This document shows, in pieces, positions 30,795-55,097 of a stretch of DNA of 64,000 bases. The notes beneath the pieces are model-generated. The model did no database searches. It saw nothing but the letters and a program-made list of their open reading frames with translations, and was not told the origin of the DNA. Every line of letters starts with the position of its first letter. Within the stretch, counting starts at the first letter, position 1. Source of the DNA: Pseudomonadales bacterium (lineage in GTDB: Bacteria > Pseudomonadota > Gammaproteobacteria > Pseudomonadales > UBA7434). The stretch lies in NCBI GenBank assembly GCA_965216795.1, contig OZ244196.1, forward strand, positions 2,263,496-2,327,495, given 5' to 3'. The position numbers and the translations under genes were made by a program.

Positions 30795-30807
30795 TGGTGC
30801 CAGGGGC
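30795..30807. repeat. distal att direct-repeat fragment (copy of tRNA-Phe 3' terminus, part 1)
   Basis: TGGTGCCAGGGGC versus tRNA 55022-55035 TGGTGCCCAGGGGC (identical except for one missing C). It sits exactly at the composition break. Confidence 0.6.
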
Positions 30808-31135
30808 TCTATCACATAATCGCTATATGTTATTGTTTTTAATGAGGTATTTGAATGTGGTCCAGGCGATATACCATCAAATGTACCATCATTTTCTAAT
30901 CGAATCATCCAGATGGGTATCTTCCCTTCCATCAGCCAGGGCGTTTGACTAAAACCTTGCAAACCCTCCTCGCATTGAGGTCTATGACGCGTTTGGTGTT
31001 TGGTTGCAGGGCCGAATAAAATCAATTTTTTAATTACGCTTTGGCTCAAATTTATCTCGAAGGCAAGTAAGTTAGACAGCATGCTACGGGGCCGCCCTCT
31101 ACACGCCTCCGATTTGCTTAACCAAAAAACTCGCT

Positions 31136-33484
31136 ATGAAGACGCCTGACACACGCCAAAAAGATCGGAAAGAACCGTTCGACGCCCCAAACTTGAACAG
31201 TCTATTTATAGAGCCTGAAGCAAGCGTTGACAAAAAGCAGTCTCAAAATGCCAGTTACCTGCGCCGTGAATTTTGTATCGATAAGCCGTTTTCAAAAGCC
31301 ACCTTACTAGCAACAGCCTGTGGCCTATATAAAGGTTTTGTGAATGGCTCGCCTATATCAACAAACCAGTTATTGCCTGGTTGCACCTTCTACAAGAAAC
31401 GCCTGCAGTACCAGGTCTATGACGTCAGCTCACTGCTCAGACAAGGTAGCAACGCCATAGGAGTGATACTAGGTAGTGGTTGGTATCGTGGCAAGCTAGG
31501 TGTTCAGTCGAAGCGCTACCATTATGGGGAAAAGGTTAAGCTTCTTTCCGTCTTGGAAATTGAATTCGATGACGGCAGCAAACAAGTGATCACTACGGAT
31601 AATCTGTGGAAAGCGACGCAAGATGGCCCGATAAGAAGTCATGACCTCAAAGATGGCGAGCACTATGACGCGACACGTGAAATGGAAGGTTGGGATCAGC
31701 CCGGATTTGACGACCACAATTGGCATGAAGTCTATCCAGCAACGTTTGATGCTTCATTAGTGCCTACTGAAGGTGAGCAAGTCGCTGAAAGAGAGCGCTT
31801 TAAACCAACGGTGTTAATCACACCCGATGGTTCTACGGTACTCGATTTTTCTCAGAATCTCGTCGGCTACGTTGAGTTTTCGGTAGATGGAACAGAGGGC
31901 CAAACGGTCAAGCTGACGCACGGAGAAACGCTCGATGAAAACGGCAACTTCACGCTAAAAAACGTCAATATGGAGAACCCCTTTTTTTCTGCCCCAAAGA
32001 GCCTGCGGCTGCAGCAAGAAGTTGAGGTGAGACTAAAAAATGGTGCGATGACCTACAAACCCTCTTTCTCCGTACATGGGTTTCGCTATGTAAAGCTGGA
32101 GAACTGGCCAGGTGATGTTGACCCCGCGCGCTTTACCGCAATAGCGCTGTATTCTGATATAGAAGAGACTGGTCATTTCGAATGCTCACACCCGATGATC
32201 AACCAGCTCTTCAAAAACGCTGTCTGGAGCCAGAAGGGTAATTTTGTTGATATCCCAACCGATTGCCCAACGCGAGAAAGAGCCGGCTGGACGGGTGACA
32301 TCGCTTCATTTTGCGAAGCGGGAACCTACCAGATGGACACCTACAACTTTCTCTCCAGGTGGATGAAAGATGTCGCGCTACAACAAGAAAGTAATGGCAA
32401 AGTGCCTAGCATTGTCCCTGAGGTGGGCGTCTCAAAAATTTCTGATGGCAGCGCAGGCTGGGCAGATGTGGCGACCATCGTTCCTTATACCCTCTATAAA
32501 ATGTACGGCGACAAAACCATCTTAAAAGAGCAATACGCCAGCATGAAAATGTGGGTGGACTTTGTCGACCGGCGCGCAAAGAAGACGCGCTTTTGGAACA
32601 AATTAAAAGGCAACCCTAATCTGGATTACCTGGTCGACACAGGCTTTCACTTTGGCGAGTGGCTCGAACCTGGCCATAGTATGGGCAAGGATCTCATAAA
32701 ATGCTTCGTATATTCTGATGCCGAGGTAGCAACAGCCTACTTTGCCTACTCCGCTAACCTGCTGTCGCAGATGGCCGGGATACTGGGTAGCAGCGATGAC
32801 CAGCAAAAATACCTGGACATCTCCCAGAAAGCCAAAGATGCCTATCGTCATGCGTTTACCGACAACGGCATCGTCCAGTCGAAACGCCAGGCACGCTATG
32901 TTCGACCCATTGCGCTGGACTTATTGCCCGAAGATGATAAACGCAAAAACGCGTTATTACTCAACGATATGATCGTAGAAAACCAATACCGTATTGGTAC
33001 CGGGTTTTTGACAACGCCATTTATTCTTCCTGTGCTTACCGACTACGGCTATCTCGAAAGCGCGTACAGGATGATCGAAAACGAAGATATACCGGGATGG
33101 CTATACAACGTTAAAAATGGCGCCACAACAATTCTAGAGAATTGGGAAGGTATCGGCACGGACGGAAAGCCTGTCGACTCATTTAATCACTACGCGTTTG
33201 GTGCGGTCACCCAATGGCTTTTCACCCATGTTGCAGGTATTACACCTTTGGAGCCTGGCTTTCAAAAAATCCAGATTCGCCCCTTTCCCGGTGGCAGCTT
33301 GACCCATGCAAACTGCACCTATAAAAGTGTCGCCGGCCCGATAAAAAGCAGTTGGCTGATAGAAAACTCGACGTTTTACTTGACAGTTGAGACTCCATCC
33401 CCGACCACGGTCATATTACCTGATGGTGGAGTGCACCAGCCTTCAGCAGGAAAGCATACATTTACGTCGCAGATACCTGCCTAG
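31136..33484 (+). CDS. alpha-L-rhamnosidase (glycoside hydrolase family 78)
   Basis: 782 aa with the GH78 hallmark DIPTDCPTRERAGWTGD, plus the typical N-terminal YLRREF...A.LLATACGLYKGFVNG and the C-terminal catalytic (alpha/alpha)6 region FNHYAFGAV. Confidence 0.85.
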   Translation: MKTPDTRQKDRKEPFDAPNLNSLFIEPEASVDKKQSQNASYLRREFCIDKPFSKATLLATACGLYKGFVNGSPISTNQLLPGCTFYKKRLQYQVYDVSSLLRQGSNAIGVILGSGWYRGKLGVQSKRYHYGEKVKLLSVLEIEFDDGSKQVITTDNLWKATQDGPIRSHDLKDGEHYDATREMEGWDQPGFDDHNWHEVYPATFDASLVPTEGEQVAERERFKPTVLITPDGSTVLDFSQNLVGYVEFSVDGTEGQTVKLTHGETLDENGNFTLKNVNMENPFFSAPKSLRLQQEVEVRLKNGAMTYKPSFSVHGFRYVKLENWPGDVDPARFTAIALYSDIEETGHFECSHPMINQLFKNAVWSQKGNFVDIPTDCPTRERAGWTGDIASFCEAGTYQMDTYNFLSRWMKDVALQQESNGKVPSIVPEVGVSKISDGSAGWADVATIVPYTLYKMYGDKTILKEQYASMKMWVDFVDRRAKKTRFWNKLKGNPNLDYLVDTGFHFGEWLEPGHSMGKDLIKCFVYSDAEVATAYFAYSANLLSQMAGILGSSDDQQKYLDISQKAKDAYRHAFTDNGIVQSKRQARYVRPIALDLLPEDDKRKNALLLNDMIVENQYRIGTGFLTTPFILPVLTDYGYLESAYRMIENEDIPGWLYNVKNGATTILENWEGIGTDGKPVDSFNHYAFGAVTQWLFTHVAGITPLEPGFQKIQIRPFPGGSLTHANCTYKSVAGPIKSSWLIENSTFYLTVETPSPTTVILPDGGVHQPSAGKHTFTSQIPA

Positions 33485-33532
33485 CAGCATAGCTTCGGGT
33501 TTGGCTGTATGAGGCCGGGTATCGAGTGGGTA

Positions 33533-33543
33533 GGAATCGAACC
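33533..33543. repeat. att direct-repeat fragment (copy of tRNA-Phe T-arm segment, part 2)
   Basis: GGAATCGAACC is identical to tRNA positions 55036-55046, the 11 nt that directly follow the segment copied at 30795-30807. The T-loop is conserved in many tRNAs, so on its own this is weak evidence. Confidence 0.4.
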
Positions 33544-33680: not shown

Positions 33681-33700
33681 ATATACCCCCAGATATACCC
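33681..33700 (+). repeat. tandem ATATACCC(C) motif pair near left island end (candidate integrase arm-type sites)
   Basis: ATATACCCCCAGATATACCC. A near-identical tandem pair (ATATACCCCAGAAATATACCCCC) lies at 54886-54908 next to the integrase, in the same orientation. Confidence 0.5.
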
Positions 33701-34090
33701 ATGAAGGTGTCTACCTCATTGCAAGACATTTACGTGAATGGGCCGATTGGCCGATGAGGGCGGCGTAGCTAAATTTTATTGTTGAGGTGATACTGCCTCT
33801 CTTTACGCTCCCCCAGCATACCGAGCATCATCGAGAAATCCTAAAAGGCCAAAGCTGTACAAACGGGGATAGGTGCTGTTTAGTGGCCTGTTTTTGAGCC
33901 TAGAGTGTAATACTCTGAGCGGCAAAGCTTTACCTCCTAGCTGAAAACAGAGCGCCACCCTGCAAGTAAAATCTGACGTTTTTGCGACGATATATTTTAT
34001 TGTTGAAGTTAAGATATGTCGGTGCTCAAAATGGCAATTAGACCTATCAGAAAAATTGGACTGATTGGTTGAATTTTCGAGGATATTTGG

Positions 34091-35407
34091 ATGTCAGAAG
34101 ATGAGATGATTGCAGCGATAAGTGCTCGCTTAGTTTTCGAGGCGGAAAAGTCAATAGACAGAAACGGTAAGGATACTGATCCTCGTGTTGCGGCTATTGC
34201 TATTGGGGTTGATAGAAGCGCTCGTCACATCGAAGAAATCTCTGTGGGTACGCAGACGTTAGAGGTGGTTGTCGCCCATCGAAGTGAATTCTATGCAGAT
34301 GAGCATGCTGAATTCACTTTGCTAGAGAGAAAACTAATTAATGAGACTGTAAACGGCGACAGCTATAGACTGTTCGTAACTTTGGAGCCTTGTTCAAAGC
34401 GTGGCGAAACGAAGCGGCCGTGCGCTGAGAGGGTGATTAAAAGAGGGTTGACGAAAATAACAATTGGCATGCTTGATCCCAACCCAAAGATATTTGGTAA
34501 CGGTGTGCATCGGTTGCTGAAAGCGGGCGTGAAAATCGATTACTTGCCGCCCTCTGCAAGAGAGAATATTCGTGCTATCAATGAAGATTTTATCGACGAT
34601 CAACGAAGAACCTTCTCTTTCAGAGACTTTATTAAGGAGCTTCCGCAAGCCTTCATATATCCAAAAGAAGCATATCTGTATTCAGTTTACGTTTTATTTC
34701 GACACTATAGCCCTGAGAAGATAGCTGGTATAGAGAGCCTTCTAGATACAGAGCCGCATGATGATAGTCAAGGTCGGCAGAAATACAGCGTTGTTATTGC
34801 AAACACCGCATTGAACACGTTTCTGGATCCGCATGAATTTCAGGCGTCACTGGCCCAGGGTTTTGCGGAGAACCGCGGATTGGAGCGAATCTACCTGATA
34901 TGCACTAACAAAGATATTGCAAAGGTTAAGCGGCTTTACGACAGCGATTCACGTTACCGCGAAGAAATTGACTACATTCTTGAAAGCCGTAACAGTGCTA
35001 TTTCTGTGTGTATTGTTGCTGATGAGCCAGAAGTCCTTGAGGTTTCGCAGGACCAGATGGCGAGTCGATCAGCAGAGGTAGGCGAGCAAAGTGCTGGTGC
35101 GTTAGAGAATAGCGCTGATGATAGTAAAGGAGTGATTTTGTTTGGCGAAGATCCACTTGAAAGCGCGCCGGATGGGCTGCCACATTTTGCTGTGGTTCGA
35201 CAGGGGGTGCCCTTACATGATCCAGAAGCTGAAGAGGATGGTGTTGTCAGTCACCGATTGTTCGCAGTTGTAGCTTCCAATAACCTCGCTTATAGAAAAA
35301 AAATGGTACAGAGATGGAAAGAGTGTCAGGGTGTTTTACAGAGTAGTGCTAGAAGTGGGGAGTTGAAGGATCTGAGGTGGTGGCTGCCCAAGATTGAAAA
35401 CTCTTGA
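34091..35407 (+). CDS. RibD/CDA-type zinc deaminase domain fused to a roughly 270-aa domain of unknown function
   Basis: 438 aa. Deaminase zinc motifs ADEHAEFTLLE (HAE) and VTLEPCSKRGETKRPCAERV (PC...PC with RibD-like long spacing), followed by GMLDPNPKIFGNGVHRLLKAGVKI as in the RibD N-domain. The C-terminal two-thirds has no motif I recognise and contains an acidic low-complexity stretch. Confidence 0.7.
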   Translation: MSEDEMIAAISARLVFEAEKSIDRNGKDTDPRVAAIAIGVDRSARHIEEISVGTQTLEVVVAHRSEFYADEHAEFTLLERKLINETVNGDSYRLFVTLEPCSKRGETKRPCAERVIKRGLTKITIGMLDPNPKIFGNGVHRLLKAGVKIDYLPPSARENIRAINEDFIDDQRRTFSFRDFIKELPQAFIYPKEAYLYSVYVLFRHYSPEKIAGIESLLDTEPHDDSQGRQKYSVVIANTALNTFLDPHEFQASLAQGFAENRGLERIYLICTNKDIAKVKRLYDSDSRYREEIDYILESRNSAISVCIVADEPEVLEVSQDQMASRSAEVGEQSAGALENSADDSKGVILFGEDPLESAPDGLPHFAVVRQGVPLHDPEAEEDGVVSHRLFAVVASNNLAYRKKMVQRWKECQGVLQSSARSGELKDLRWWLPKIENS

Positions 35408-36522
35408 TTGAGGAAAGTACAGTGGATGCCAGGCTAAAGGCGGCTGAGGCCTTAAAAGATTGGGGTAGAAATGAGTATGAGGTGGTATATGGTACAAGCG
35501 TGGAGGCCTTCGCTGGCGTTGGCGCCAAGCACTCCCTAAAAATCTCGGGCGCAAAAGGGCCTGAAGGGGCGTGGTCAGAAATTCAAGCCTTTATGAAGGC
35601 AAATGAGAATTGTCCAGCCGTTTTTCAAATTGGTTTTGACATTCATTATGCTGAAGATCGGACTATTGGTACTATTTTTATTCCGGACCGGGTAGAGCAA
35701 TTCAAGTCTGAAAGTGGTGCAGATCATAAAGATAGCGCCAATCACGTGAGCGAATATGTTGGTAGCAGTGAAGTATCACATGTCGAGACAGTTAAACGTG
35801 CTCTAGATTGGATTGGTGGTGACAAGAGTAGAAGATTAACTGTCGCGAGGCGTGAAATTCTAGATTATCGAGGCGATCTGTTGGATTCGGTGCAATTTGG
35901 CCCTCGCTTTGATGAAGAGGCGCTTACTAGATCCTGTTATTTTCGCTCTCCAGATCTCGCTTTTTTAAGTCAAAGCCCCGAGCTGCTCGCTATGGGTAAG
36001 GGGCCGACATTTAGTACCTATAAACTGTCAGGAACTGCGGGCCTAGACTCCCGAGACGAAGAAATGCTTTCTGACATTAAGCTTGCCGAGGAGCATGATC
36101 TTTCTGCGGCGGCGATGCTTGCATCGTTGAGCAAGTTAGGTCACTGCAGGCGATTGCCGGCAGTGGTTTATCGCTGCGGTGCTTTGAAACATATAATGAG
36201 TGAGTTTAAAACAGACATAGGTTTAAGCTCTTCGTTCATTGACTGCGTAGAGGCAGTCTTTCCAGTTGGTGCTAATCCGGTAAGCTCAGGTCTCGATATG
36301 CTTGTGAAGCTAGAAAAATCAAATAGAGGACCATACTACGGGGTATATGGGATCATTGAACCGGATATGAGTTATTCGGTCTCACAGAATATTAGATCTA
36401 TATTTCTGCGAGATGGCGTCTATGAGGTCTGGGTGGGCGGATGCGTTACTTGGCGTTCAGATCCAGTCGATGAATGGAATGAAACGGAGTTGAAACTAGC
36501 TAGTTGTCCTAAGTTAATATGA
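35404..36522 (+). CDS. chorismate-utilising enzyme family protein (TrpE/PabB/EntC-like core, short and divergent)
   Basis: 372 aa. Family motifs SPELLAMGKGPTFSTYKLSGTAG (SPE...GT) and NRGPYYGVYGIIEPDMSYSVSQNIRSIFLRDGVYEVWVGGCVTWRSDPVDEWNETELK (RGxYxGxxG...IR...GxGxV..S.P..E..ET..K). The TTG start overlaps the upstream stop (TTGA). Confidence 0.7.
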   Translation: MIEESTVDARLKAAEALKDWGRNEYEVVYGTSVEAFAGVGAKHSLKISGAKGPEGAWSEIQAFMKANENCPAVFQIGFDIHYAEDRTIGTIFIPDRVEQFKSESGADHKDSANHVSEYVGSSEVSHVETVKRALDWIGGDKSRRLTVARREILDYRGDLLDSVQFGPRFDEEALTRSCYFRSPDLAFLSQSPELLAMGKGPTFSTYKLSGTAGLDSRDEEMLSDIKLAEEHDLSAAAMLASLSKLGHCRRLPAVVYRCGALKHIMSEFKTDIGLSSSFIDCVEAVFPVGANPVSSGLDMLVKLEKSNRGPYYGVYGIIEPDMSYSVSQNIRSIFLRDGVYEVWVGGCVTWRSDPVDEWNETELKLASCPKLI

Positions 36523-37229
36523 ATCAATTATACACTTACGAATCCTTTCGAGCGAAGCTCTGGCGTATTGCGGCTAGAAAAGCGAGCAAGGCGCATCCCT
36601 GGTTTAGTCTCATCATTGACAGAAAATTGACTAGAGAGCAGGTCATTGCTGGTGAGATGCAGCATTATCTAAGGGTTTTGAAAAATGAGGACTTTTATAG
36701 GTCCATTCTAAAAAATGCTGAGGCTGAAGGCGATGAGCGAGTCATTAACGTTGCAAGGGCCAACTATGAAGAGGAGGTCTTATGCGATCCTAGTCATGCC
36801 GATTTGCTCTTCCAGCTGCTTGATGAGGCTGGTTATGCGAAAGAACACTGTGTGGCCGTTTCTCCGTCTAATTCGACACGTTTCGCAATCGACAGTATTT
36901 TAAGATTCTGTGAGGAGAAGTCTGCGATTGAGGGCATCGCATTTACAGCTTTTGTCGAAGCTCAAAACGCTGGTGAGAAAGGCGTTGCTTATAAGGTGTA
37001 TCAAGCGTTAACAGAGCATTATGGCTTTAGCAAGCATGGTGCAGAAACATTTCTTGAGCATTCAATTGTGGATGAAGAGCACGGAAAACGTCAGATTGAT
37101 CTAGTTTGTGAGGTGGCTACAGATATAGAGCTTCAGGCAAGGATCATAAATGCCGTTGAGGCTGGCACAACGACTTTCTCCATAGAGTGGAGTGGTCATC
37201 TTGAGGCGGCGCTAGGATTGAGAGATTAA
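36519..37229 (+). CDS. heme-oxygenase-like diiron oxidase (CADD/PqqC/TenA-superfamily iron-containing redox enzyme)
   Basis: 236 aa. N-terminal HPWFSLIIDRKLTREQVIAGEMQHYLRV. Candidate diiron ligands lie in the canonical spacing: E-x6-H (EEEVLCDPSH), FVEAQNAGE, and HSIVDEEH (H-x3-D-x2-H). The ATG overlaps the upstream stop (ATGA). Confidence 0.65.
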   Translation: MNQLYTYESFRAKLWRIAARKASKAHPWFSLIIDRKLTREQVIAGEMQHYLRVLKNEDFYRSILKNAEAEGDERVINVARANYEEEVLCDPSHADLLFQLLDEAGYAKEHCVAVSPSNSTRFAIDSILRFCEEKSAIEGIAFTAFVEAQNAGEKGVAYKVYQALTEHYGFSKHGAETFLEHSIVDEEHGKRQIDLVCEVATDIELQARIINAVEAGTTTFSIEWSGHLEAALGLRD

Positions 37230-37978
37230 CCAAATCTTTCCATAAGCGGCTTCTCGATAGCTTGTAGATACAAGTAGTTTATCAATCCCCCTGTGATCAT
37301 TAGTGCAAATATCCCTAGGTACATCTCTTCATAAAGGAATGCTCTACTTGCGTCTAGGATAAATCTGCCAATACCATCGCTTCCGATTATCATATCGGAG
37401 GCTACAGCAACGATAAGAGAAATGGGTATTGAGATTCTTATGCCGGTGATTATTGACGGAATCGCTGGGGCGAATAAAAAATGGTACGCTCTTTTTTGTC
37501 GAGTTAGTGGTAGTACTAACCCGAGGTCTTTGGTTCGGGGATCAATGTTGGTGGCTCCAGAAAGAGTGTTTATCAATATTGGCCATGATGCGCCGAAGAA
37601 AACAACAAATATTTTCATGGTGTCGTCAATTCCTAGGAATAGACTTGCGACGGGGATTAAAGCGATTGGAGCAAGCGGGCGGAATAGCTCGATAATTGGT
37701 AGTGACAGCGCTCGTAACGTTGGCAGGTTTCCTAGCAGCAAGCCGAGTGGAACCATTAGTAGGGTCGCGAAACTTAGTCCCGCTATGGCTCTATAAAGCG
37801 TGATTGCGATGTCTAGAGGTATTGATGGCCAGCTGTTTGCGGAGAATCCTTGAGAAAAGATGCTGAATATACTAGGAAATAGTTTTGGGTCTGGTGCCAA
37901 CTTAGCTAAAACAGTCAGTTCCCATGTCAGAATGAACAGGGATATAGAGGCTACTGAGTAGATAAATCGTTTCATCAT
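37226..37978 (-). CDS. ABC transporter permease (NitT/TauT family)
   Basis: Six TM helices with an EAA-like loop region (ASWPILINTLSGATNIDPRTKDLG). Start ATG at 37978 overlaps the ATPase stop (ATGA). Its stop shares the tetranucleotide TTAA (37226-37229) with the convergent gene. Confidence 0.85.
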   Translation of the reverse strand: MMKRFIYSVASISLFILTWELTVLAKLAPDPKLFPSIFSIFSQGFSANSWPSIPLDIAITLYRAIAGLSFATLLMVPLGLLLGNLPTLRALSLPIIELFRPLAPIALIPVASLFLGIDDTMKIFVVFFGASWPILINTLSGATNIDPRTKDLGLVLPLTRQKRAYHFLFAPAIPSIITGIRISIPISLIVAVASDMIIGSDGIGRFILDASRAFLYEEMYLGIFALMITGGLINYLYLQAIEKPLMERFG

Positions 37979-38733: not shown

Positions 38734-38755
38734 GATGCGCTCGATTTAACTTTGC

Positions 38756-41417: not shown

Positions 41418-41418
41418 G

Positions 41419-41616: not shown

Positions 41617-41726
41617 AGTGATCAATCCTGATATGTCGTTGGATATGATCACGATTAGATAGGGAGCGAGCTTCTGTCACACTCCTTGTCATAGGACGAG
41701 CGCTTGTACGAGCATAAGCTATTGAT

Positions 41727-47418: not shown

Positions 47419-48266
47419 TGATTGACGTAAGTCAGAGCGACGATGTTCGGCATGTGCTAGGGCTGTCTGGTGGCAAAGATAGCGCTGCTTTGGCCATCTA
47501 CCTTAAGGATAAGTATCCGGAAATACATTCCAAGGTCGAATATTTCTTTTCTGATACTGGCGCGGAGCTTTCAGAAGTCTACGAGTTTCTTGATAAGCTT
47601 GAAGCCTACTTAGGAAAGGAGATTATTAGATTGTCGAGTGGCCGTGATTTCGATCACTGGCTCAAGGTTCATAATGGGATGCTTCCGTCAGCGAAGGCGC
47701 GTTGGTGTACACGCTATATGAAGATCAGGCCTTTCGAGGCGTTTGTTAAAGATGACCCAGTTATCTCTTATATAGGTATTCGCGCTGACGAAAATAGAGA
47801 GGGTTACATTAGTAAGAAGTCGACTATCTCCGCAGTATTTCCTTTCATTGAAGATGGCCTTGTAAGAGATGATATTTTTAGAATTCTAGAAGATAGCGTG
47901 GGCATTCCCGAATATTACAGATGGCGATCTAGGTCAGGTTGCTATTTTTGCTTCTTCCAGCGGCAGGACGAGTGGCTTGGTTTGAAGCGGAACCACCCGG
48001 ACCTTTTTGAAAAGGCGCGTCAGTATGAGAATCGTCTGCGGGAAAAATTTGATTGGAAAGATGGAAAAATTCCAGTCGAGGCAAAAGGCTTTACTTGGTC
48101 GCCCGAAGGTACGATTGAACAAAGAGTTGCTCGCGCTGAGGAGCGAGAGAAAACACAAGGGCTGATCGCTTCGAGTAATGGCAATAGTGAGCGATGGCAG
48201 GATTCTGTCAGGGCCATGGTCGATGATGATCCTGAAGATCAGGCGTGCTTGATATGTAGCCTCTGA
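47415..48266 (+). CDS. sspD: SspD/DndC-like PAPS-reductase-family ATP pyrophosphatase
   Basis: 283 aa. PP-loop LGLSGGKDSAALAIYL, the ARWCTRYMKIRPF motif of the PAPS reductase fold, and cysteine clusters SGCYFCFF and CLICSL. Confidence 0.75.
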   Translation: MMIDVSQSDDVRHVLGLSGGKDSAALAIYLKDKYPEIHSKVEYFFSDTGAELSEVYEFLDKLEAYLGKEIIRLSSGRDFDHWLKVHNGMLPSAKARWCTRYMKIRPFEAFVKDDPVISYIGIRADENREGYISKKSTISAVFPFIEDGLVRDDIFRILEDSVGIPEYYRWRSRSGCYFCFFQRQDEWLGLKRNHPDLFEKARQYENRLREKFDWKDGKIPVEAKGFTWSPEGTIEQRVARAEEREKTQGLIASSNGNSERWQDSVRAMVDDDPEDQACLICSL

Positions 48267-48268
48267 GT

Positions 48269-50401
48269 ATGGAAATCGATAAGCTCAAGCCGATCTACTT
48301 TCCAAAAGAGTGCGATATTGACTCTGAACTTTTCCTGCCCCTCGCTTCTTCCACCAGTAGTTTAGATTGCATGGTGGGTTACTTCACCAGTGGCTCACTC
48401 TCTGAGCTAGCTAGATCAATAGCATGCTATCTTAAGTCGCGCCGTGATTCGGTAATGCGATTGATAATTAGCCCAAATCTATCCGAACAGGATGTCAAGG
48501 CGCTGAGATTTGCCCTGGAAAATCAAGGCAATATGATCCCGATTCTTTTCCCGGATTTTCATATATCTGAAGATAGCTTAAGAGCAAACTGCGTTAAAGC
48601 GCTTTGCTATTTGGTTGCGAGTGGAAGACTTGACGTAAAAGTGGCATTTCAAACTGAAGGCCTATTCCACACCAAGTGCTGGTTGTTTGAACTGCCAAAA
48701 GGAAATGTTGCGGTGCATGGCTCAAGTAATGCCACTAAATCCGGGCTGCTTAAGAACTTCGAGCAGCTGGCCGTGTCCCGCTCTTGGCTTGGCGAAGACT
48801 CGCGTCAAACATATATAGAGCTAAAAGCACGATTTGACGATATATGGTGTAACAATTACGGGGGGATAACATGCAGCCCCTTATCGAATCGCTCTTTAGA
48901 TTATGTTAAAGAGGTTAGTGAGAAGATAAAAGTAGTTGGTCCCGAACTTGAATCAGCGTTTTTAGAATCACTATGCGCTGATTTGCTTAAGGAATTGTCA
49001 GCTTCTCGAGAGGAGGATTTTGAATATAGAGCGCCTAAACTCTCAATCCCTCCATGGTTAAATTTCCAAGATGGGCCTTTCAGGCATCAAGGTGATGCAA
49101 TTGCGGCCTGGGAAGCAAACGAGCGAAGGGGGATTCTCTCTATTGCGACCGGGGGCGGTAAAACTCTCACCTCTCTTGTGGCGGCTGCGAGGTTGCAGAA
49201 GATTTGCGATCCGCTTTTTATTCTAATAGTGGTCCCAACTAACCCCTTAGCTGTGCAATGGCTGGGAGAGGTAAAAGAATTTGGCGTGCAGGCCAAATCA
49301 AGCAGTGATCGCTCAGGTGGAAGCTCCGCCAAACAGCTGAAAGATGTGCGGCGCAATCTATCGCTCCATACTTCGACGGTTGAAATATTTATAACAACTT
49401 ATGATTCGCTTAGTGGGAGCTTAGCGCAACCAATATCAGATATCGCACGAACATACCAATCGCTGATTATTGCAGATGAAGTACATAATATGGGGTCTGC
49501 TCGGTTTGTATCTAAGCCGCCTGACGATTTCAAATTTCGATTAGGGCTTTCTGCGACATACGAAAGGCAATTTGATGATGATGGGACCGCATTTCTCCTA
49601 GCTTACTTTGGCGGCGCGGTATATGAATATAGCCTGAAGGAAGCAATCGGTCGGTGCCTAGTACCATTTGACTACTTTCCGAATCGTGTGGGGCTTGATC
49701 CTAGTGAAGAGCAAGAGTTTTTAGACCTAACATATGAGATTAGAAAGCTTGCATACGCTTTTGGGGCTAGCGAGGGCGATTCTTCGAGGCAGAAGCTAGA
49801 TCAGCTTATATTTAAGCGTCGGCGTATTATAGAGGCTGCCAGTCAAAAGGTTACAGCTTTCAAGGCGTTGCTCCCAGTGGATAAGCGCACGATAAAGCGA
49901 ACTTTAGTGTTTTGTACAGACAAGCATCCAGAGCAGCTCGATGATGTGAATTTAGTTCTGAATGAGTTGGGCTTGCAGTTTCACCAGGTGACCCAGGAAG
50001 AGACTGGCAACCGAACCAAGTTGAATTCAATTATTCAGGAATTTAGTAGCGGTAATTTGCAGGCGTTGACCTCAAAGCGAGTCCTTGATGAAGGATTCAA
50101 CGTTCCACAAACGGAAGTAGCCTATCTATTGGCTAATCAAACTGGTGTACGACAGTGGGTGCAAAGATTGGGGCGAGTTTTGCGTCTATCTCCAAAAACG
50201 AACAAAAGTAAGGCGTTAGTTTACGATTTCGTAGTAATGCCGCCTGTTGTTTCTGATGTAATGGATGAAGACTACAAGCTCTTAGTCAAGAATGAATACG
50301 ATCGCGTCGCATTTTTCTCGGAGCATAGTGAGAATGGATTGGAGAGGGGCGGTTCTATTTTGTTAATGCAAGAAATGATGGATCTATTGAGGAAGCAATG
50401 A
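48269..50401 (+). CDS. PLD-family nuclease / SF2 (DEAH-type) helicase fusion; putative PT-dependent restriction component
   Basis: 710 aa. HKD motif FHTKCWLFELPKGNVAVHGSSNATKSG (HxK...GSxN). Helicase motif I SIATGGGKT, motif II IIADEVHN, motif III LSAT, and motif VI QWVQRLGRVLR. Confidence 0.75.
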   Translation: MEIDKLKPIYFPKECDIDSELFLPLASSTSSLDCMVGYFTSGSLSELARSIACYLKSRRDSVMRLIISPNLSEQDVKALRFALENQGNMIPILFPDFHISEDSLRANCVKALCYLVASGRLDVKVAFQTEGLFHTKCWLFELPKGNVAVHGSSNATKSGLLKNFEQLAVSRSWLGEDSRQTYIELKARFDDIWCNNYGGITCSPLSNRSLDYVKEVSEKIKVVGPELESAFLESLCADLLKELSASREEDFEYRAPKLSIPPWLNFQDGPFRHQGDAIAAWEANERRGILSIATGGGKTLTSLVAAARLQKICDPLFILIVVPTNPLAVQWLGEVKEFGVQAKSSSDRSGGSSAKQLKDVRRNLSLHTSTVEIFITTYDSLSGSLAQPISDIARTYQSLIIADEVHNMGSARFVSKPPDDFKFRLGLSATYERQFDDDGTAFLLAYFGGAVYEYSLKEAIGRCLVPFDYFPNRVGLDPSEEQEFLDLTYEIRKLAYAFGASEGDSSRQKLDQLIFKRRRIIEAASQKVTAFKALLPVDKRTIKRTLVFCTDKHPEQLDDVNLVLNELGLQFHQVTQEETGNRTKLNSIIQEFSSGNLQALTSKRVLDEGFNVPQTEVAYLLANQTGVRQWVQRLGRVLRLSPKTNKSKALVYDFVVMPPVVSDVMDEDYKLLVKNEYDRVAFFSEHSENGLERGGSILLMQEMMDLLRKQ

Positions 50402-50610
50402 GCGTATCTTACAAAAAAGTCAATCAGATGATTGAGGAGCAAGTTGATCTGTCTTCATTGGAGGCCGCACAGAAACGTATATTGAAGGACTTGTGCAAAC
50501 GCATCTATTCTTTGGAGTCGGCAATTGACAAATCGTCGTCTTCGCACCTAATTAGCGAGTTGAAGGGAGAGGTTTCTGTAAAGGCTGATGATTTTGGGAG
50601 GGCAGAATGA
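50398..50610 (+). CDS. 70-aa hypothetical protein (micro-ORF coupled on both sides)
   Basis: ATGA overlaps with both the upstream (50398-50401) and downstream (50607-50610) genes, and it exactly fills the gap between them. Predicted helical. No known motif. Confidence 0.55.
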   Translation: MSVSYKKVNQMIEEQVDLSSLEAAQKRILKDLCKRIYSLESAIDKSSSSHLISELKGEVSVKADDFGRAE

Positions 50611-52745
50611 AGCTGCTAAGGGCTAGTTTCGTAAATTTCAGGCTGCTTAAAGACTTAACACTGGATTTTTCGACTGATGCTGACAAGCCGCTTACTGTTA
50701 TCCGTGCCGCGAATGAGACTGGGAAAACAACTTGCCAATACGGATTGATGTGGGCGTTGTATGGGTCTAAGGAGGCTTTGCCAAGGCGAGGAGATTATTC
50801 GTTGTTCCCCGCAGATCTAAAGTCAGAAGGTGTAAAAAAAGTAGAGGTTTCTGTCGAAATAGAGTTTGTTGTGGATAGCGTGGTAAGCACAGGTAGAGGG
50901 ACGAGCGAAATTGAGTCGAAGACATATAGGTTGATACGTTCTTGTATGGAGTATCCAGGTGACGGATCGAGCCAGAGTAGAGATGCGGAGCGTGTTCAGA
51001 TGTCTTTGGTTACGCCCTCGGGAACTGAAATAGTTCCTGAAAATGAAATGCAGGCAATAATAGCGGCTGGACTCCCCGCGGCGCTTAAGGACGTTTATTT
51101 CACTGATGGCGATAGCGCCATGACCTTTATTGAGGCTGCCGCAACGGCAGGAGTCAAGAGAAAGCGAGTAAGTGGTGCTATTGAGTCATTATTAGGTATA
51201 GAAATACTCAAGGCTACTGGCTCTCATCTAAACCAAGTAGCAAAAAAATTTAGCGGAGAAATTGATAATACTGATTATCAGGCTGAGCTGGAAAAACTAA
51301 ATGATCAAATCGACGGTCATCAGGAGGACATAGCAGAATGGAATTTAGAGCTTTCTGAGTTTGAGTCGCAGGCAACTGAGGGGGCTCAGCGGCTCAAAAC
51401 GCTCAAGGCGCAAATTGAAGATGCGTTGAAGCAGGGGGATAAGGAGCAGCTTGCGAAGCGACTCGCGAGTGTAGAGGCAGATAAGAGGCGCCTCATTTCA
51501 AATGCGGATACCCATCTAAATCAGCTGGCAAGACTAGTCTCTAGTGAGGACGTGTCAAAGATATTTGTCTCTGACATGGCAATTGCAGCCAAGGAGCTAT
51601 TGGCGAAGCAGCACCAAGATAAAAAGCTTCCTAAAGCGGACATCCCTATACTTGAAGAGCTTTTGGCTCGGGAGGACTGCTTTTGTGGCAGCGACCTGTC
51701 ACAGGATACTGAGCCAGGCCGTGCTAGGAGGTCCCTTATAGAGAAGACTATCGAAGATAGCGCTGAAATGGACAAAATTCAGGAAGAGGCTACCAGCCTA
51801 TACTACCGCTCCACAAGTGAATCCTATGACGGTATTGCGCCTGCCTGGAAGCGCGAGTATGCGTCGACCCAGGGGGCCTATCAAAATGTGCGTCAGAGTT
51901 TGAGTGAGAAGGAATCAGAGAGTCAAAGTTTGGATGAGACTATTCGTCACTTAGATGACTCAATGGTTACAGAGCTAAAGGAGCAGGAAGGGGTTGTTGC
52001 TGAAAAGTTGAGTAGGCTGCGTACGAGTTTAGGGATGACGGAGCAGAAAATACAGGATGCCTCGGAAAGATTGGCTGAGGCTCAAAAGGATCTCTCTAAG
52101 GTAGAGAAAAAGCTTGGGCGAACTAACACATCCGCGAGCAAGTTAACGCTTGCGAGATTAGCGCAGAAAGTGTTTGAGGGTGTCGTGGAAAGGCTGAAAG
52201 GCGAGGAGCTTAGGCGTGTAAGTGAGGAGATGAACAGAATATTTTTAGAAATGATTGGCTCTGATCCCGAGGGGAATGACCTGACCCTGATCACTAGGGC
52301 AGAACTCACTGAAGAGTACGATATAGTTGTTTATGGGCCGGATGGCCACCAGCTAGATCCAGATCAAGACCTGAATGGTGCTTCGCGCCGGGCAATTACG
52401 TTAGCATTCATATTAGCCTTAACAAAAGTATCTGAGGTCGAAGCGCCGAACGTAATAGATACCCCGTTGGGCATGATGTCTGGGTTTGTGAAGCAATCAG
52501 TTTTGCTGCAAACGATACGAGAGGGTAGCCAAGTAGTTTTATTTCTCACGCATGATGAAATAAAAGGTGTTGAGCATATATTAGACCAGTACGCCGGCCT
52601 AGTTTACACCCTGACAAATCCAGCGCACTACCCCAAGATCCTTAAAAATCAACCAGAGGTCAGTGATGCTCGCATACTGCGCTGCGCATGTGATCATAAA
52701 GCGTCTTGTAGTATCTGCGCCAGGAAAGATTTGGAGGTGGCATGA
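50607..52745 (+). CDS. SMC/Rad50-like AAA ATPase, DndD-like
   Basis: 712 aa. Opens MKLLRASFVNFRLLKDL..., then Walker A RAANETGKTT and a long central coiled coil with a CFCG hook-like motif. The C-terminal part has LNGASRR (signature-like), VIDTPLGMMSG and VVLFLTHDE (Walker B/D-loop), as in DndD-type proteins. Confidence 0.75.
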   Translation: MKLLRASFVNFRLLKDLTLDFSTDADKPLTVIRAANETGKTTCQYGLMWALYGSKEALPRRGDYSLFPADLKSEGVKKVEVSVEIEFVVDSVVSTGRGTSEIESKTYRLIRSCMEYPGDGSSQSRDAERVQMSLVTPSGTEIVPENEMQAIIAAGLPAALKDVYFTDGDSAMTFIEAAATAGVKRKRVSGAIESLLGIEILKATGSHLNQVAKKFSGEIDNTDYQAELEKLNDQIDGHQEDIAEWNLELSEFESQATEGAQRLKTLKAQIEDALKQGDKEQLAKRLASVEADKRRLISNADTHLNQLARLVSSEDVSKIFVSDMAIAAKELLAKQHQDKKLPKADIPILEELLAREDCFCGSDLSQDTEPGRARRSLIEKTIEDSAEMDKIQEEATSLYYRSTSESYDGIAPAWKREYASTQGAYQNVRQSLSEKESESQSLDETIRHLDDSMVTELKEQEGVVAEKLSRLRTSLGMTEQKIQDASERLAEAQKDLSKVEKKLGRTNTSASKLTLARLAQKVFEGVVERLKGEELRRVSEEMNRIFLEMIGSDPEGNDLTLITRAELTEEYDIVVYGPDGHQLDPDQDLNGASRRAITLAFILALTKVSEVEAPNVIDTPLGMMSGFVKQSVLLQTIREGSQVVLFLTHDEIKGVEHILDQYAGLVYTLTNPAHYPKILKNQPEVSDARILRCACDHKASCSICARKDLEVA

Positions 52746-53176
52746 TGTCTGATAATCCATATGCTTCCTACAATATTGAAATTCCTCGAAACTATTCTGA
52801 TGAGGTGAAGCGATTCTGCAGGTCCGGCGGTGGTAGAGATACCTATGAGTTTGCTCCTTTTGAAAGGCAAGTTGATCTTTGGTATTTCTCTTTCATCTAT
52901 GCAGTAGCGGAGGGGTTGGATCCAATTGTGAGTAAAGATGGCTCAAACATTACGCCTGCATCTATACTTTCCACTAATTCATATAGGATTACTCATATAA
53001 AGCTTGCGTACTTAGGGCGCTATAAGGATTTGCAGCAGCTGGCGGATCATAGAATGGTATTTGATTATGCGCTGGGCATGGCCAATGCTGGAATGCCTTA
53101 TGTGCTGCAATTATTGAAGGATCCAGATGAAAGGCCGTTGTGGTCGTTGCTTGACGAAATCGAACGCAGACCGTAA
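52742..53176 (+). CDS. 144-aa hypothetical protein, last gene of the PT-type operon
   Basis: Its ATGA start overlaps the ATPase stop. I can name no motif with confidence. It may correspond to small 'phosphorothioation-associated' proteins, but this is unverified. Confidence 0.55.
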   Translation: MMSDNPYASYNIEIPRNYSDEVKRFCRSGGGRDTYEFAPFERQVDLWYFSFIYAVAEGLDPIVSKDGSNITPASILSTNSYRITHIKLAYLGRYKDLQQLADHRMVFDYALGMANAGMPYVLQLLKDPDERPLWSLLDEIERRP

Positions 53177-54828: not shown

Positions 54829-54864
54829 TTTGGTCCTCCAGATCACCAGAAAGAGGGGCTAGTA

Positions 54865-54908
54865 GATACCCCAATGAGAAATTCGATATACCCCAGAAAT
54901 ATACCCCC
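54865..54908 (+). repeat. three (G/A)ATA(TA)CCCC motifs between integrase and tRNA (candidate arm-type sites)
   Basis: GATACCCC (54865-72), ATATACCCC (54886-94) and ATATACCCCC (54899-908). The last two form a tandem pair nearly identical to 33681-33700. Confidence 0.5.
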
Positions 54909-55021
54909 ATCTAGCGTGGATCTGGAGGTTCGCGAGGGGAAGAAGCGGGACCAATTATACCGCTAACTGCATGTAATTATTATAAAAAAAGGATGTGCTG
55001 GGAACTGTTGGAATTTGCACA

Positions 55022-55097
55022 TGGTGCCCAGGGGCGGAATCGAACCACCGACACGGGGATTTTCAATCCCCTGCTCTACCGACTGAGCTACCTGGGC
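55022..55097 (-). tRNA. tRNA-Phe (anticodon GAA)
   Basis: The reverse complement reads GCCCAGGTAGCTCAGTCGGTAGAGCAGGGGATTGAAAATCCCCGTGTCGGTGGTTCGATTCCGCCCCTGGGCACCA. It is 76 nt with an encoded CCA, an anticodon loop TTGAAAA, and a canonical cloverleaf, and is near-identical to E. coli tRNA-Phe. Confidence 0.95.

What the first reader, a model, noticed from the sequence alone, without database searches (positions are those of the whole stretch)
30795..55046. Composite ~24-kb island at tRNA-Phe with two recombinases and modular cargo
The composition changes sharply at 30.8 kb and at the tRNA. The integrase adjacent to the tRNA 3' end is P4-type. A second, unrelated tyrosine recombinase with AlpA-like genes sits in the middle (39.8-42.6 kb).

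The cargo blocks are functionally unrelated (glycosidase; enzyme operon plus transporter; PT defence), suggesting stepwise accretion. Flanking core genes (PEP-CTERM protein cluster on the left, yggX-mutY on the right) would be contiguous in an island-free relative.
Basis: partly seen in the sequence, partly recalled or inferred. Interest (0 to 1): 0.55.

Follow-up and report, generated by a model that had tools for sequence, protein, structure and literature searches.

The report
Defence island at tRNA-Phe, two recombinases
This is a real, roughly 24-kb foreign DNA island inserted at a tRNA-Phe gene that carries a phage-defence operon; its "second recombinase" belongs to a widespread conserved island backbone and is not a sign of patchwork assembly, so the find is fairly ordinary but well resolved.

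Summary
GC falls from 0.57-0.59 to 0.47 between 30.8 kb and tRNA-Phe (55022-55097, minus strand). A P4-type integrase lies 175 nt from the tRNA 3' end.

1. The AlpA / HTH / Xer-like recombinase trio recurs with a P4-type integrase in 14 of 19 related contexts. These sit at ssrA, tRNA-Leu and tRNA-Phe, and most that show cargo carry defence genes. It is a conserved backbone with a swappable integrase-attP cassette, not a second unrelated element.

2. Every 2.7-kb piece of 33.5-55.0 kb shares one tetranucleotide signature. Only the 2.7-kb rhamnosidase block (30808-33532) stands apart.

3. The 3'-terminal 25 nt of the tRNA recur as two contiguous halves, at 30795 and 33533. Each half is followed by integrase arm-like repeats.

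The best model is a 21.5-kb element plus a remnant of a second integration.

The cargo is a seven-gene, translationally coupled sspBCD-pbeABCD operon, and an orphan deaminase / chorismate-binding / CADD-like operon with an ABC transporter. No empty site could be found because no close relative is available. The island is a new variant of a known kind, of modest interest.

The parts
30795..30807 (+). Distal att half-core 1. Copy of the tRNA-Phe 3'-terminal 14 nt (TGGTGCCCAGGGGC) with one C missing.
   Evidence: Unique in the window and sits exactly at the GC step.
30808..33532 (.). Block A, a 2,725-nt integrase-less remnant of a separate integration. It contains a doubtful 97-aa ORF and the rhamnosidase gene.
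   Evidence: Its tetranucleotide signature has r=0.67 to host and 0.48 to the rest of the island. It is bounded by the two half-cores.
30867..30891 (+). Arm-like direct repeats CGATATACCATCA / ATGTACCATCA, 60 nt inside half-core 1.
   Evidence: (D19). They resemble, but differ from, the ATATACCCC sites next to the integrase.
31136..33484 (+). GH78 alpha-L-rhamnosidase (782 aa).
   Evidence: Four Bac_rhamnosid Pfam domains, E down to 4e-99. NCBIfam rhamnosidase match.
33533..33543 (+). Distal att half-core 2, GGAATCGAACC. It equals tRNA 3' nt 15-25 (T-loop region) and is contiguous in the tRNA with half-core 1.
   Evidence: It is the only other copy in the window, with 0.03 expected.
33681..33701 (+). 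Arm-type repeats ATATACCCCC-AG-ATATACCCA, the same motif and orientation as next to the integrase. Proposed P-arm of the 21.5-kb element.
   Evidence: Five exact ATATACCCC copies in the window against 0.17 expected.
34091..35407 (+). Orphan 438-aa protein with an N-terminal RibD-like / cytidine deaminase domain. First gene of a translationally coupled trio.
   Evidence: The closest homologue is 40% identical over 51% of the length.
35404..36522 (+). Divergent chorismate-binding enzyme (372 aa).
   Evidence: Pfam Chorismate_bind, E=1.4e-30. Below every NCBIfam cut-off.
36519..37229 (+). Haem-oxygenase-like di-iron protein of the CADD / PqqC / TenA fold (236 aa).
   Evidence: weak fol_rel_CADD and PqqC hits.
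37226..38011 (-). ABC permease of the nitrate / sulfonate / taurine type.
37975..38733 (-). ABC ATPase.
38756..39730 (-). NMT1/SsuA-family substrate-binding lipoprotein. The likely start is at 39730, 79 nt after the recombinase stop.
   Evidence: lipobox LLCISAC.
39810..40940 (-). Xer-like tyrosine recombinase (rec376), hallmark of the island family.
   Evidence: More than 7,000 homologues. Catalytic R, H-x-x-R, H and Y are invariant in 43 relatives.
41037..41417 (-). HTH_17 protein with a C-terminal Cys-rich zinc-ribbon-like tail. Probably starts at 41417, coupled to the alpA stop.
   Evidence: Homologues precede rec in most loci whose upstream side is held.
41419..41652 (-). AlpA-family excisionase/regulator (77 aa).
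   Evidence: Pfam Phage_AlpA, E=7e-19. PHROG 'excisionase and transcriptional regulator'.
41727..42611 (-). Hypothetical 294-aa protein in the slot that relatives fill with unrelated proteins (hyp~390 plus hyp~265, hyp225, hyp258).
   Evidence: No hit in Pfam, PADLOC, NCBIfam or PHROGs. No similarity to its counterparts.
42947..43909 (+). SspB (DUF4007).
   Evidence: PADLOC SspB, 292 bits. Pfam DUF4007, E=5e-77.
43906..47418 (+). SspC ATPase (1170 aa).
   Evidence: PADLOC SspC, 1413 bits. Walker A GPYGSGKS.
47415..48266 (+). SspD, PAPS-reductase-like, with the SGGKDS motif.
   Evidence: PADLOC SspD, 343 bits..
48269..50401 (+). PbeA-like protein with a PLD-like nuclease domain fused to an SF2 helicase.
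   Evidence: PADLOC PbeA, 580 bits. PLDc_2, ResIII and Helicase_C domains. TIGR04095 dnd_restrict_1.
50398..50610 (+). Small 70-aa protein in the PbeB position.
   Evidence: Position only. PbeB is described as a rapidly evolving small protein (PMC10853773).
50607..52745 (+). PbeC, a CxC-type ABC ATPase.
   Evidence: PADLOC PbeC, 168 bits. CxC at residues 358-360 of 712.
52742..53176 (+). 144-aa protein in the PbeD (DndE-cognate) position.
   Evidence: Position and size only; no HMM hit. A 148-aa counterpart sits in the same place on plasmid CP099618.1.
53620..54846 (-). P4-type tyrosine integrase (int408).
   Evidence: 61% identical to the integrase at tRNA-Phe in L052. Catalytic R, HxxR, H and Y are visible.
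54864..54907 (+). Three arm-type repeats (AGATACCCC, ATATACCCC, ATATACCCC) just upstream of the int start codon.
   Evidence: The same GGGGTAyAT repeats lie between tRNA-Phe and int in L052 and L002.
55022..55046 (+). attR core, the 3'-terminal 25 nt of tRNA-Phe (TGGTGCCCAGGGGCGGAATCGAACC on the + strand).
55022..55097 (-). tRNA-Phe(GAA), the integration target.

Best explanation
The low-GC region is a non-conjugative genomic island integrated into the 3' end of tRNA-Phe by a P4-type tyrosine integrase. It belongs to a widespread family of small islands, most of them carrying defence genes.

Conserved backbone of the family. The backbone is the same-strand gene string (variable hypothetical gene or genes) - AlpA - HTH_17/Zn-ribbon - Xer-like recombinase. 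The P4-type integrase plus attP forms a swappable targeting cassette. In the excised circle this cassette would lie between the recombinase and the cargo, in either orientation.

Layout in this window. Integration puts the integrase next to the tRNA and the recombinase module towards the far end. There are two cargo slots:
- Slot 1, between int and the module: a seven-gene sspBCD-pbeABCD operon. It is inferred to mark host DNA with phosphorothioate and attack unmarked DNA.
- Slot 2, between the recombinase and the distal att: an orphan three-enzyme operon and an ABC importer.

Size and structure. The functional unit is about 21.5 kb (33533-55046). The leftmost 2.7 kb (the rhamnosidase block) is the remnant of a second, related integration at the same att site.

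Shown: the anatomy, the repeats, the composition and the recurrence of the backbone.

Inferred: integration and excision by Int408 with AlpA, helper-dependent transfer, the defence function, and any role of the second recombinase.
For: Boundaries and composition.
- Composition step and tRNA.
- P4-type integrase.
- tRNA-derived half-cores at 30795 and 33533.
- ATATACCCC arm-type repeats at both ends, five exact copies against 0.17 expected. They are conserved upstream of int in L052 and L002.

Complete relatives show the same core-plus-arm geometry.
- L102: tRNA-Leu direct repeats at 2406 and 2485 matching 12502, with GTTACCCAG arms at both ends.
- L104: int -> <- type ISP R-M, hyp, hyp, AlpA, HTH, rec ->, then arm-like repeats, then the core nqr operon.

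The backbone recurs with P4-type integrases.
- At ssrA: L085-87, L089, L100.
- At tRNA-Leu: L102. At tRNA-Phe: L052.
- On a Ruegeria replicon filed as a 787-kb plasmid.
- In all, 14 of 19 contexts.
- rec stays 54-59% identical while int ranges from 32 to 61%.

Cargo in relatives is mostly defence: GmrSD, type I, III and ISP R-M, Mrr, and an unclassified reverse transcriptase (RVT_1).

Composition inside the island. 33.5-55.0 kb is coherent in tetranucleotide usage and block A is not.

ssp-pbe operon.. The same gene order occurs on plasmid CP099618.1.

No conjugation, replication or packaging genes were found in Pfam or PHROGs.
Against: - No full-length direct repeat exists. The two half-cores are 13 and 11 nt and lie 2.7 kb apart. 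The arm spacing at 33.5 kb (138 nt) is longer than in L102 and L104 (50-60 nt).
- The window lacks the hyp~390 / hyp~265 pair that most family members carry.
- GC3 differs between backbone genes (0.53-0.56) and part of the cargo (0.40-0.48), so some mosaicism inside the 21.5 kb is real.
- No empty site, circular form or excision evidence is available.
- Five rec contexts show no P4-type integrase. At least two of them look phage- or satellite-like (L094, L097), and a third (L091) may simply have its integrase beyond the contig end.
Confidence: 0.72

Rival explanations
1. Stepwise accretion. Three or more unrelated elements landed one after another. The AlpA-HTH-recombinase module would be the integration machinery of an independent element, for example 33.6-42.7 kb, nested in or abutting a simpler int408 plus Ssp/Pbe island.
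For: - rec-family proteins look like sole integrases in phage-like or satellite-like IMG/VR contigs: L094 with tail genes and L097 with a primase.
- GC3 steps at about 39.8 kb and inside the ssp operon.
- rec identity is not tightly congruent with int identity.
Against: - No direct or inverted repeats link 33.5, 39.7, 42.7 and 53.4 kb.
- The same int ... AlpA-HTH-rec combination is found in 14 contexts, including two complete islands whose ends are defined by the P4-type Int's core and arm sites only.
- The tetranucleotide signature is uniform over 33.5-55.0 kb.
Confidence: 0.15
2. A single 24.25-kb element with attL at 30795. The 11-mer and the ATATACCCC pair at 33.5-33.7 kb would be internal chance or regulatory sequences, and the rhamnosidase is ordinary cargo.
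For: - The 30795 repeat sits exactly at the GC step.
- Its arm-like repeats lie at the canonical +60 nt, as in L102 and L104.
Against: - The 30867-30891 repeats (ACCAT) fit the int-proximal sites (ACCCC) less well than those at 33681-33701 do.
- GGAATCGAACC has 0.03 chance copies expected and starts exactly where the 30795 repeat stops in the tRNA.
- Block A has a different oligonucleotide signature.
Confidence: 0.12
3. Not a mobile island at all, but an old, low-GC but vertically inherited variable region next to a tRNA.
For: No perfect direct repeat and no empty site could be found.
Against: - An intact integrase, arm-type repeats and tRNA-derived cores.
- A 10-point GC gap and a foreign tetranucleotide signature.
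- Homologous backbones at different tRNA and tmRNA genes in other taxa.
Confidence: 0.02

Closest known systems
tmRNA/tRNA-integrating, non-autonomous defence islands such as I23/I44/I55 of Pseudomonas fluorescens and related 'phage defence elements' (PMC12595487)
   Same: - A tyrosine integrase next to the RNA gene.
- AlpA towards the other end.
- Short direct repeats derived from the RNA gene's 3' end.
- Defence cargo in between.
- No conjugation or packaging genes.
- Transfer presumably needs a helper; the Pseudomonas islands are transduced by a jumbo phage.
   Different: - Those islands are described with YqaJ, RadC, inovirus Gp2-like and HTH core genes, and no second recombinase is reported.
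- Here the core is AlpA - HTH/Zn-ribbon - Xer-like recombinase.
- The target here is tRNA-Phe rather than ssrA, although many relatives found here are at ssrA.
Pipolins of Gammaproteobacteria (PMC11551731)
   Same: tRNA-integrated defence islands of about 20 kb. Their conserved core includes two tyrosine recombinases, an IntSXT/P4-like integrase and a second one followed by an excisionase. They are described as bimodular platforms that exchange defence genes.
   Different: - The hallmark primer-independent PolB is absent here, with no polymerase hit.
- The second recombinase of pipolins is IntP2-type, whereas rec376 is Xer-like. Its only PDB sequence match is a weak one to XerH.
P4-like satellites and CP4-57-type cryptic elements with P4-family integrase plus AlpA (own knowledge; SatelliteFinder paper PMC10085698 was listed but not read)
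   Same: The integrase architecture (Arm-DNA-bind_3), the AlpA regulator/excisionase, the tRNA or tmRNA target, and known defence hotspots.
   Different: No primase/helicase (alpha), psu, delta or sid homologues, and no PHROG structural or replication hits.
Phosphorothioate defence systems: SspABCD-SspE, SspABCD-SspFGH and DndCDEA-PbeABCD (PMC8092258, PMC10853773)
   Same: - SspB, SspC and SspD match PADLOC models strongly.
- PbeA (nuclease-helicase), a small PbeB-like ORF, PbeC with a CxC motif, and a PbeD-sized ORF follow in the canonical order.
   Different: - The modification module is Ssp, but the partner is Pbe/CxC rather than SspE or SspFGH. None of the papers I read lists this pairing.
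- sspA is absent from the locus.
- All seven genes overlap or abut as one operon.

Membership tests
tRNA-integrated genomic island with a P4-type tyrosine integrase | Integrase with an N-terminal arm-DNA-binding domain, a central SAM-like domain and a C-terminal catalytic domain | tested here: met
   Arm-DNA-bind_3 (4e-25), Phage_int_M (2e-30), Phage_integrase (1e-17) and PRK09692. R, HxxR, H and Y are present.
tRNA-integrated genomic island with a P4-type tyrosine integrase | Integrase gene next to the 3' end of a tRNA or tmRNA gene | tested here: met
   The int start at 54846 is 175 nt from the tRNA-Phe 3' end at 55022.
tRNA-integrated genomic island with a P4-type tyrosine integrase | Direct repeat of the tRNA 3' segment at the far end | tested here: inconclusive
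   There is no intact 25-nt repeat. Two contiguous pieces exist instead: 13 nt at 30795 (one C lost) and 11 nt at 33533.
tRNA-integrated genomic island with a P4-type tyrosine integrase | Arm-type repeats inside both ends | tested here: met
   ATATACCCC sites at 54864-54907 and 33681-33701. Homologous repeats occur in L052 and L002. The geometry is the same in L102 and L104. Binding was not tested.
tRNA-integrated genomic island with a P4-type tyrosine integrase | Empty site in related genomes, or an excised circular form | not testable with these tools
   The best MutY relative is 65% identical. The left-flank protein has no orthologue. The window's proteins are not in the contig index.
AlpA-HTH-Xer-like-recombinase backbone islands (family delineated here; no name found) | Same-strand order AlpA, HTH_17, recombinase, with a P4-type integrase in the same island | tested here: met
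   Window. Relatives.
AlpA-HTH-Xer-like-recombinase backbone islands (family delineated here; no name found) | Conserved pair of hypothetical proteins (~390 aa and ~265 aa) upstream of alpA | tested here: not met
   The pair is present in L086, L087, L091, L100, L102 and L104. The window has an unrelated 294-aa protein instead, as do L052 and L083.
SspABCD phosphorothioate modification module | SspB (DUF4007), SspC ATPase and SspD PAPS-reductase-like protein in one operon | tested here: met
   PADLOC scores of 292, 1413 and 343 bits. SGGKDS and Walker A motifs.
SspABCD phosphorothioate modification module | SspA cysteine desulfurase in the locus, and an SspE or SspFGH partner | tested here: not met
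   No cysteine desulfurase, SspE or SspFGH match in the island. The literature allows IscS to substitute for SspA.
PbeABCD / CxC ABC-ATPase system | PbeA as a nuclease fused to an SF2 helicase, and PbeC as an ABC ATPase with a CxC motif at the coiled-coil apex | tested here: met
   PbeA scores 580 bits and has PLDc_2, ResIII and Helicase_C domains. PbeC scores 168 bits and has CFC at residues 358-360 of 712. A strict HxKxxxxD pattern was not found in PbeA.
PbeABCD / CxC ABC-ATPase system | PbeB small protein and PbeD DndE-like protein | tested here: inconclusive
   ORFs of 70 aa and 144 aa sit in the right places, but no model matches them. ORFs of equivalent size occur on CP099618.1.
P4-like phage satellite | Primase/helicase and capsid-size or helper-exploitation genes (psu, delta, sid) | tested here: not met
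   No such Pfam or PHROG hits.
Pipolin | Primer-independent family B DNA polymerase | tested here: not met
   No polymerase domain in any island ORF.
Integrative conjugative or mobilizable element | Relaxase, coupling protein or type IV secretion genes | tested here: not met
   None found among the island ORFs scanned.

The most novel reading that the evidence does not exclude
The Xer-like recombinase, with its AlpA and HTH/Zn-ribbon partners, may be the engine of a modular 'platform'. It would catalyse exchange of the neighbouring units, namely the int-attP targeting cassette (found in either orientation and in clades for ssrA, tRNA-Leu and tRNA-Phe) and the defence cargo. The family would then work as an integron-like shuffling system for immunity genes rather than a plain island.

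A smaller novel reading is that PbeABCD is a third restriction partner for single-strand phosphorothioation by SspBCD. That would account for some of the roughly 84% of sspBCD loci that lack SspE or SspFGH.
Probability: 0.1. Interest if true: 0.8.

Novelty: new variant of a known kind. Interest (0 to 1): 0.4.

Why it matters
tRNA-borne defence islands are a main route by which bacteria trade anti-phage systems. This window adds three things:

1. A clean example showing that a "second integrase" need not mean accretion. It marks a large family (more than 7,000 recombinase homologues) with a conserved AlpA-HTH-recombinase core, interchangeable P4-type targeting cassettes and interchangeable defence cargo. 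That gives a practical hallmark for finding such islands and new defence genes.

2. An sspBCD-pbeABCD operon. It is a testable candidate for the missing restriction partner of orphan Ssp modification modules.

3. An orphan deaminase / chorismate-binding / CADD-like operon of unknown chemistry riding in the same element.

None of this overturns current views.

Tried and rejected
- Full-length att repeat. No copy of the 25-nt tRNA end with up to 3 mismatches exists, and the default repeat finder missed the split repeat.
- Other copies of TGGTGCCCAG at 14569, 15040 and 18729. All lie inside ORFs called on the minus strand and read Leu-Gly-Thr codons, so I treat them as codon-usage coincidences.
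- Inversion hypothesis. This held that the rec-to-cargo segment is flipped relative to ssrA-type relatives by site-specific inversion. No inverted repeats link 39.7 kb and 53.4 kb. The layouts are better explained by an int-attP cassette in either orientation.
- Nested rec-element. No shared 9-mers of note among the intergenic regions at 33.5, 39.7, 42.7 and 53.4 kb, apart from the arm motifs.
- Empty-site search.
  - The genome-contig scan with MutY gave only 54-65% relatives.
  - The left-flank 720-aa protein has no orthologue.
  - Exact look-ups of window proteins were not on record.
- Single-protein scans of viral contigs for rec and int found almost nothing. An alignment-based scan gave 7 loci.
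- The deaminase homology search gave no informative context.
- Rfam found no riboswitch or other RNA in the island.
- PADLOC found no known defence model in the enzyme operon, the transporter, the rhamnosidase or the recombinase module beyond generic ATPase and HTH hits.
- No att repeats were found around the Ruegeria mini-element.

Full report
**1. Check of the observation**

ARAGORN and Rfam find one RNA gene in the window, tRNA-Phe(GAA) at 55022-55097 on the minus strand. Its 3' end therefore points into the flagged region.

GC is 0.573 to the left of 30795, 0.473 from 30795 to 55021, and 0.587 to the right. With 200-nt windows the fall lies between 30.7 and 30.8 kb and the rise at 55.0 kb.

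- a GH78 alpha-L-rhamnosidase (31136-33484);
- three overlapping genes for a deaminase-domain protein, a chorismate-binding enzyme and a haem-oxygenase-like/CADD-like protein (34091-37229);
- an ABC importer on the other strand (37226-39730);
- a Xer-like tyrosine recombinase (39810-40940), preceded on the same strand by an HTH_17 protein, an AlpA protein and a 294-aa hypothetical protein;
- SspB, SspC, SspD, PbeA, a 70-aa ORF, PbeC and a 144-aa ORF (42947-53176);
- a P4-type integrase (53620-54846) with Arm-DNA-bind_3, Phage_int_M and catalytic domains.

yggX and mutY follow the tRNA.

**2. The ends of the island**

No intact copy of the tRNA 3' end exists elsewhere in the window. Two pieces of it do exist, in the same orientation.

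- TGGTGCCAGGGGC at 30795-30807 is tRNA 3' nucleotides 1-14 with one C missing. It is unique in the window and sits at the GC step.
- GGAATCGAACC at 33533-33543 is nucleotides 15-25. It is the only other copy in the window, with 0.03 expected. It lies in the gap between the rhamnosidase gene and the enzyme operon.

The two pieces are exactly contiguous in the tRNA.

Next to the integrase start codon there are three repeats of ATATACCCC or AGATACCCC (54864-54907). The same motif occurs twice at 33681-33701, in the same orientation and 138 nt inside the second piece. There are five exact copies in the window against 0.17 expected.

The integrases at tRNA-Phe in two other genomes (L052, 61% identical; L002, 50%) have the same GGGGTAyAT repeats between the tRNA and int. 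I read these as arm-type, or possibly operator, sites of this integrase clade. Binding itself was not tested.

A more diverged pair, ATATACCATCA / ATGTACCATCA, lies 60 nt inside the first piece.

**3. Composition inside the island**

Tetranucleotide-usage deviation was calibrated on 2.7-kb pieces.
- Host pieces correlate with the rest of the host at r=0.83 ± 0.04 (minimum 0.71), and with the island at 0.37.
- Each of the seven 2.7-kb pieces tiling 33.5-52.6 kb correlates with the rest of the island at 0.71-0.80 and with the host at 0.19-0.51. The int-proximal segment (53177-55021) correlates at 0.51-0.70 with the other island segments.
- Block 30808-33532 gives 0.67 to the host and 0.48 to the island.

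So 33.5-55.0 kb behaves as one foreign unit and the rhamnosidase block as something else.

At a finer scale GC3 is 0.53-0.56 for int, the recombinase module and sspB/C. It is 0.40-0.48 for the enzyme/transporter block and for sspD-pbeD. Some older mosaicism is therefore likely.

**4. The second recombinase in its wider context**

The recombinase has more than 7,000 homologues at E ≤ 1e-10. The nearest are 55-59% identical, and the catalytic residues are invariant in an alignment of 43.

I examined 19 distinct genomic contexts. In 14 of them a P4-type integrase lies in the same island.

Two layouts occur.
- Convergent layout. The order is cargo, hyp~390, hyp~265, AlpA, HTH, rec, then the integrase pointing back, then ssrA (L085-87, L089, L100) or tRNA-Leu (L102). 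The rec-int gap runs from a 4-nt overlap up to 6.8 kb. In L087 the gap holds a reverse transcriptase.
- Same-direction layout. The order is tRNA, int, cargo on the other strand, hypothetical gene(s), AlpA, HTH, rec. This is seen in the window, in L052 (tRNA-Phe, type I R-M cargo), in L104 (type ISP R-M cargo) and on a Ruegeria replicon filed as a 787-kb plasmid (no cargo, about 4 kb).

Two relatives are complete.
- L102 is bounded by tRNA-Leu and two copies of its 3' 22 nt. GTTACCCAG arm repeats lie inside both ends.
- L104 ends about 650 nt after rec with arm-like repeats, followed directly by the core nqr operon.

In both, the island ends are explained by the P4-type integrase alone.

If the islands are drawn as excised circles, both layouts have the same order. 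The cargo comes first, then the hyp-AlpA-HTH-rec string, then an int-attP cassette in one or the other orientation.

The recombinase stays 54-59% identical to the window's across these islands. The integrase ranges from 32% (ssrA clade) through 44% (tRNA-Leu) to 51-61%. The targeting cassette has evidently been exchanged on a conserved backbone.

Cargo in relatives is mostly defence: GmrSD, type I, III and ISP R-M, Mrr, and an unclassified reverse transcriptase (RVT_1). Five contexts show no P4-type integrase. At least two of them look like phages or satellites (L094, L097), and L091 may have its integrase beyond the contig end.

**5. What the island is**

I conclude that the window holds a member of this family. 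The element runs from 33533 to 55046 (21.5 kb).
- The sspBCD-pbeABCD operon lies in the slot between int and the backbone.
- The enzyme operon plus ABC importer lies in the slot between rec and the distal att. That slot is 0.6-1.3 kb in L104 and Ruegeria and 6.3 kb here.

The leftmost 2.7 kb is a remnant of another integration event at the same att.

Whether it was inserted into the 25-nt attL or is the residue of an older tandem island is not resolved.
- Insertion into attL explains the contiguous half-cores.
- An older tandem island explains its own arm-like repeats at the canonical +60 nt, but it needs a deletion ending exactly at nucleotide 14/15.

Because attL of the 21.5-kb element keeps only 11 nt of the core, excision may be impaired. 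This is an inference.

No relaxase, secretion, replication or packaging genes were found. Transfer must therefore depend on a helper, as shown for tmRNA islands moved by a jumbo phage (PMC12595487).

**6. The cargo**

The seven ssp/pbe genes overlap by 4 nt or abut, so they form one operon.
- SspB, SspC and SspD match PADLOC models at 292, 1413 and 343 bits.
- PbeA matches at 580 bits and has PLD-like, ResIII and Helicase_C domains.
- PbeC matches at 168 bits and has a CxC motif in the middle of the protein.
- The 70-aa and 144-aa ORFs sit where PbeB (a small, fast-evolving protein) and PbeD (the DndE cognate) are expected (PMC10853773), but they match no model.

sspA is absent from the locus, and the literature accepts IscS as a substitute.

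The papers I read list Dnd-Pbe, Ssp-SspE and Ssp-SspFGH pairings. They also note that about 84% of sspBCD loci have no known partner.

The same sspABCD-pbeABCD order occurs on Sphingomonadaceae plasmid CP099618.1. SspD also abuts PbeA on a Rhizobium plasmid. That makes 2 of 73 SspD-bearing plasmids. The pairing is therefore recurrent but rare, and its function is untested.

The deaminase protein is an orphan, with a best hit of 40% identity over half its length. The chorismate-binding and CADD-like proteins fall below every curated cut-off. No riboswitch was found.

**7. The claim about the flanks**

mutY-yggX-tRNA-Phe is conserved in most of the 80 nearest genomes. These are Cellvibrionales, Halieaceae and other Pseudomonadales, with 54-65% MutY identity.

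Nothing downstream of the tRNA is conserved in 52 loci. The largest shared gene cluster is integrases, found in 6 loci. Twelve of 64 contigs end within 1.5 kb of the tRNA. The site is a hotspot and a synteny break.

No relative is close enough to show an empty site, and the left-flank protein has no orthologue. The contiguity claim therefore cannot be tested here.

**8. Verdict**

The finding is real, and its core reading is right: an island at tRNA-Phe with a P4-type integrase and modular cargo. The inference drawn from the second recombinase is not supported. It is a backbone gene of a widespread island family, not a sign of a second unrelated element.

The nearest precedents are the intY/alpA tmRNA islands and pipolins, which also keep two tyrosine recombinases (PMC11551731). 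The island here lacks the defining genes of pipolins, P4-like satellites and ICEs.

I rate it a new variant of a known kind, with modest interest.

Noticed in passing
window 42947-53176: sspB-C-D and pbeA-B-C-D form one seven-gene operon with 4-nt overlaps. Ssp modification paired with a Pbe/CxC module is not listed in the papers I read. It recurs on plasmid CP099618.1 (with sspA) and on NZ_CP140639.1.
   Followed up: partly
window 34091-37229 and 37226-39730: An orphan, translationally coupled trio: a RibD-like deaminase-domain protein with an unknown 280-aa C-terminal part, a divergent chorismate-binding enzyme, and a CADD/PqqC-like di-iron protein. It sits next to a NitT/TauT-type ABC importer. 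All are below curated family cut-offs, and the chemistry is unknown.
   Followed up: partly
window 40941-41036; also L052, L081, L083, L086, L087, L091 upstream of rec: A conserved DNA motif (ATAAAC ... TAAACAGTGACTT) lies 25-70 nt upstream of the recombinase start. It persists although the proteins are only about 55% identical. It may be a promoter/operator or a recombinase site.
   Followed up: no
L016, L025, L031, L034, L038, L044, L046, L057 and others: Many metagenome-assembled contigs of related taxa stop at or just after tRNA-Phe. This fits strain-variable islands at this site.
   Followed up: partly
L102 2406-2427 and 2485-2506: Two tandem copies of the tRNA-Leu 3' fragment sit at the far end of a related island. 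The second has a single-C deletion in the same part of the acceptor stem as the window's 30795 repeat.
   Followed up: no
window 47415 (sspC/sspD border): GC3 drops from 0.53-0.55 (sspB, sspC) to 0.43-0.47 (sspD to pbeD) inside one operon. This hints at a recombination joint between the modification and effector halves.
   Followed up: no
window 23899-26142 and 28458-30620: The left flank holds two paralogues, 63% identical, of a large protein with a hydrophobic C-terminal tail. Homologues are few and scattered (Myxococcota, Verrucomicrobiota, Planctomycetota). The left flank may itself be a variable region, with GC of 0.52-0.57.
   Followed up: no
window 53177-53619: A stretch of about 440 nt between the PbeD-like gene and the integrase stop contains only short overlapping ORFs with no family hit. 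It may be a decayed gene or a cargo-slot border.
   Followed up: no
L098 (Ruegeria conchae NZ_CP081104.1, 528717-534146): A minimal version of the backbone of about 4 kb: P4-type int, two small hypothetical genes, AlpA, HTH and rec, with no cargo. A third integrase gene sits divergently next to it.
   Followed up: partly
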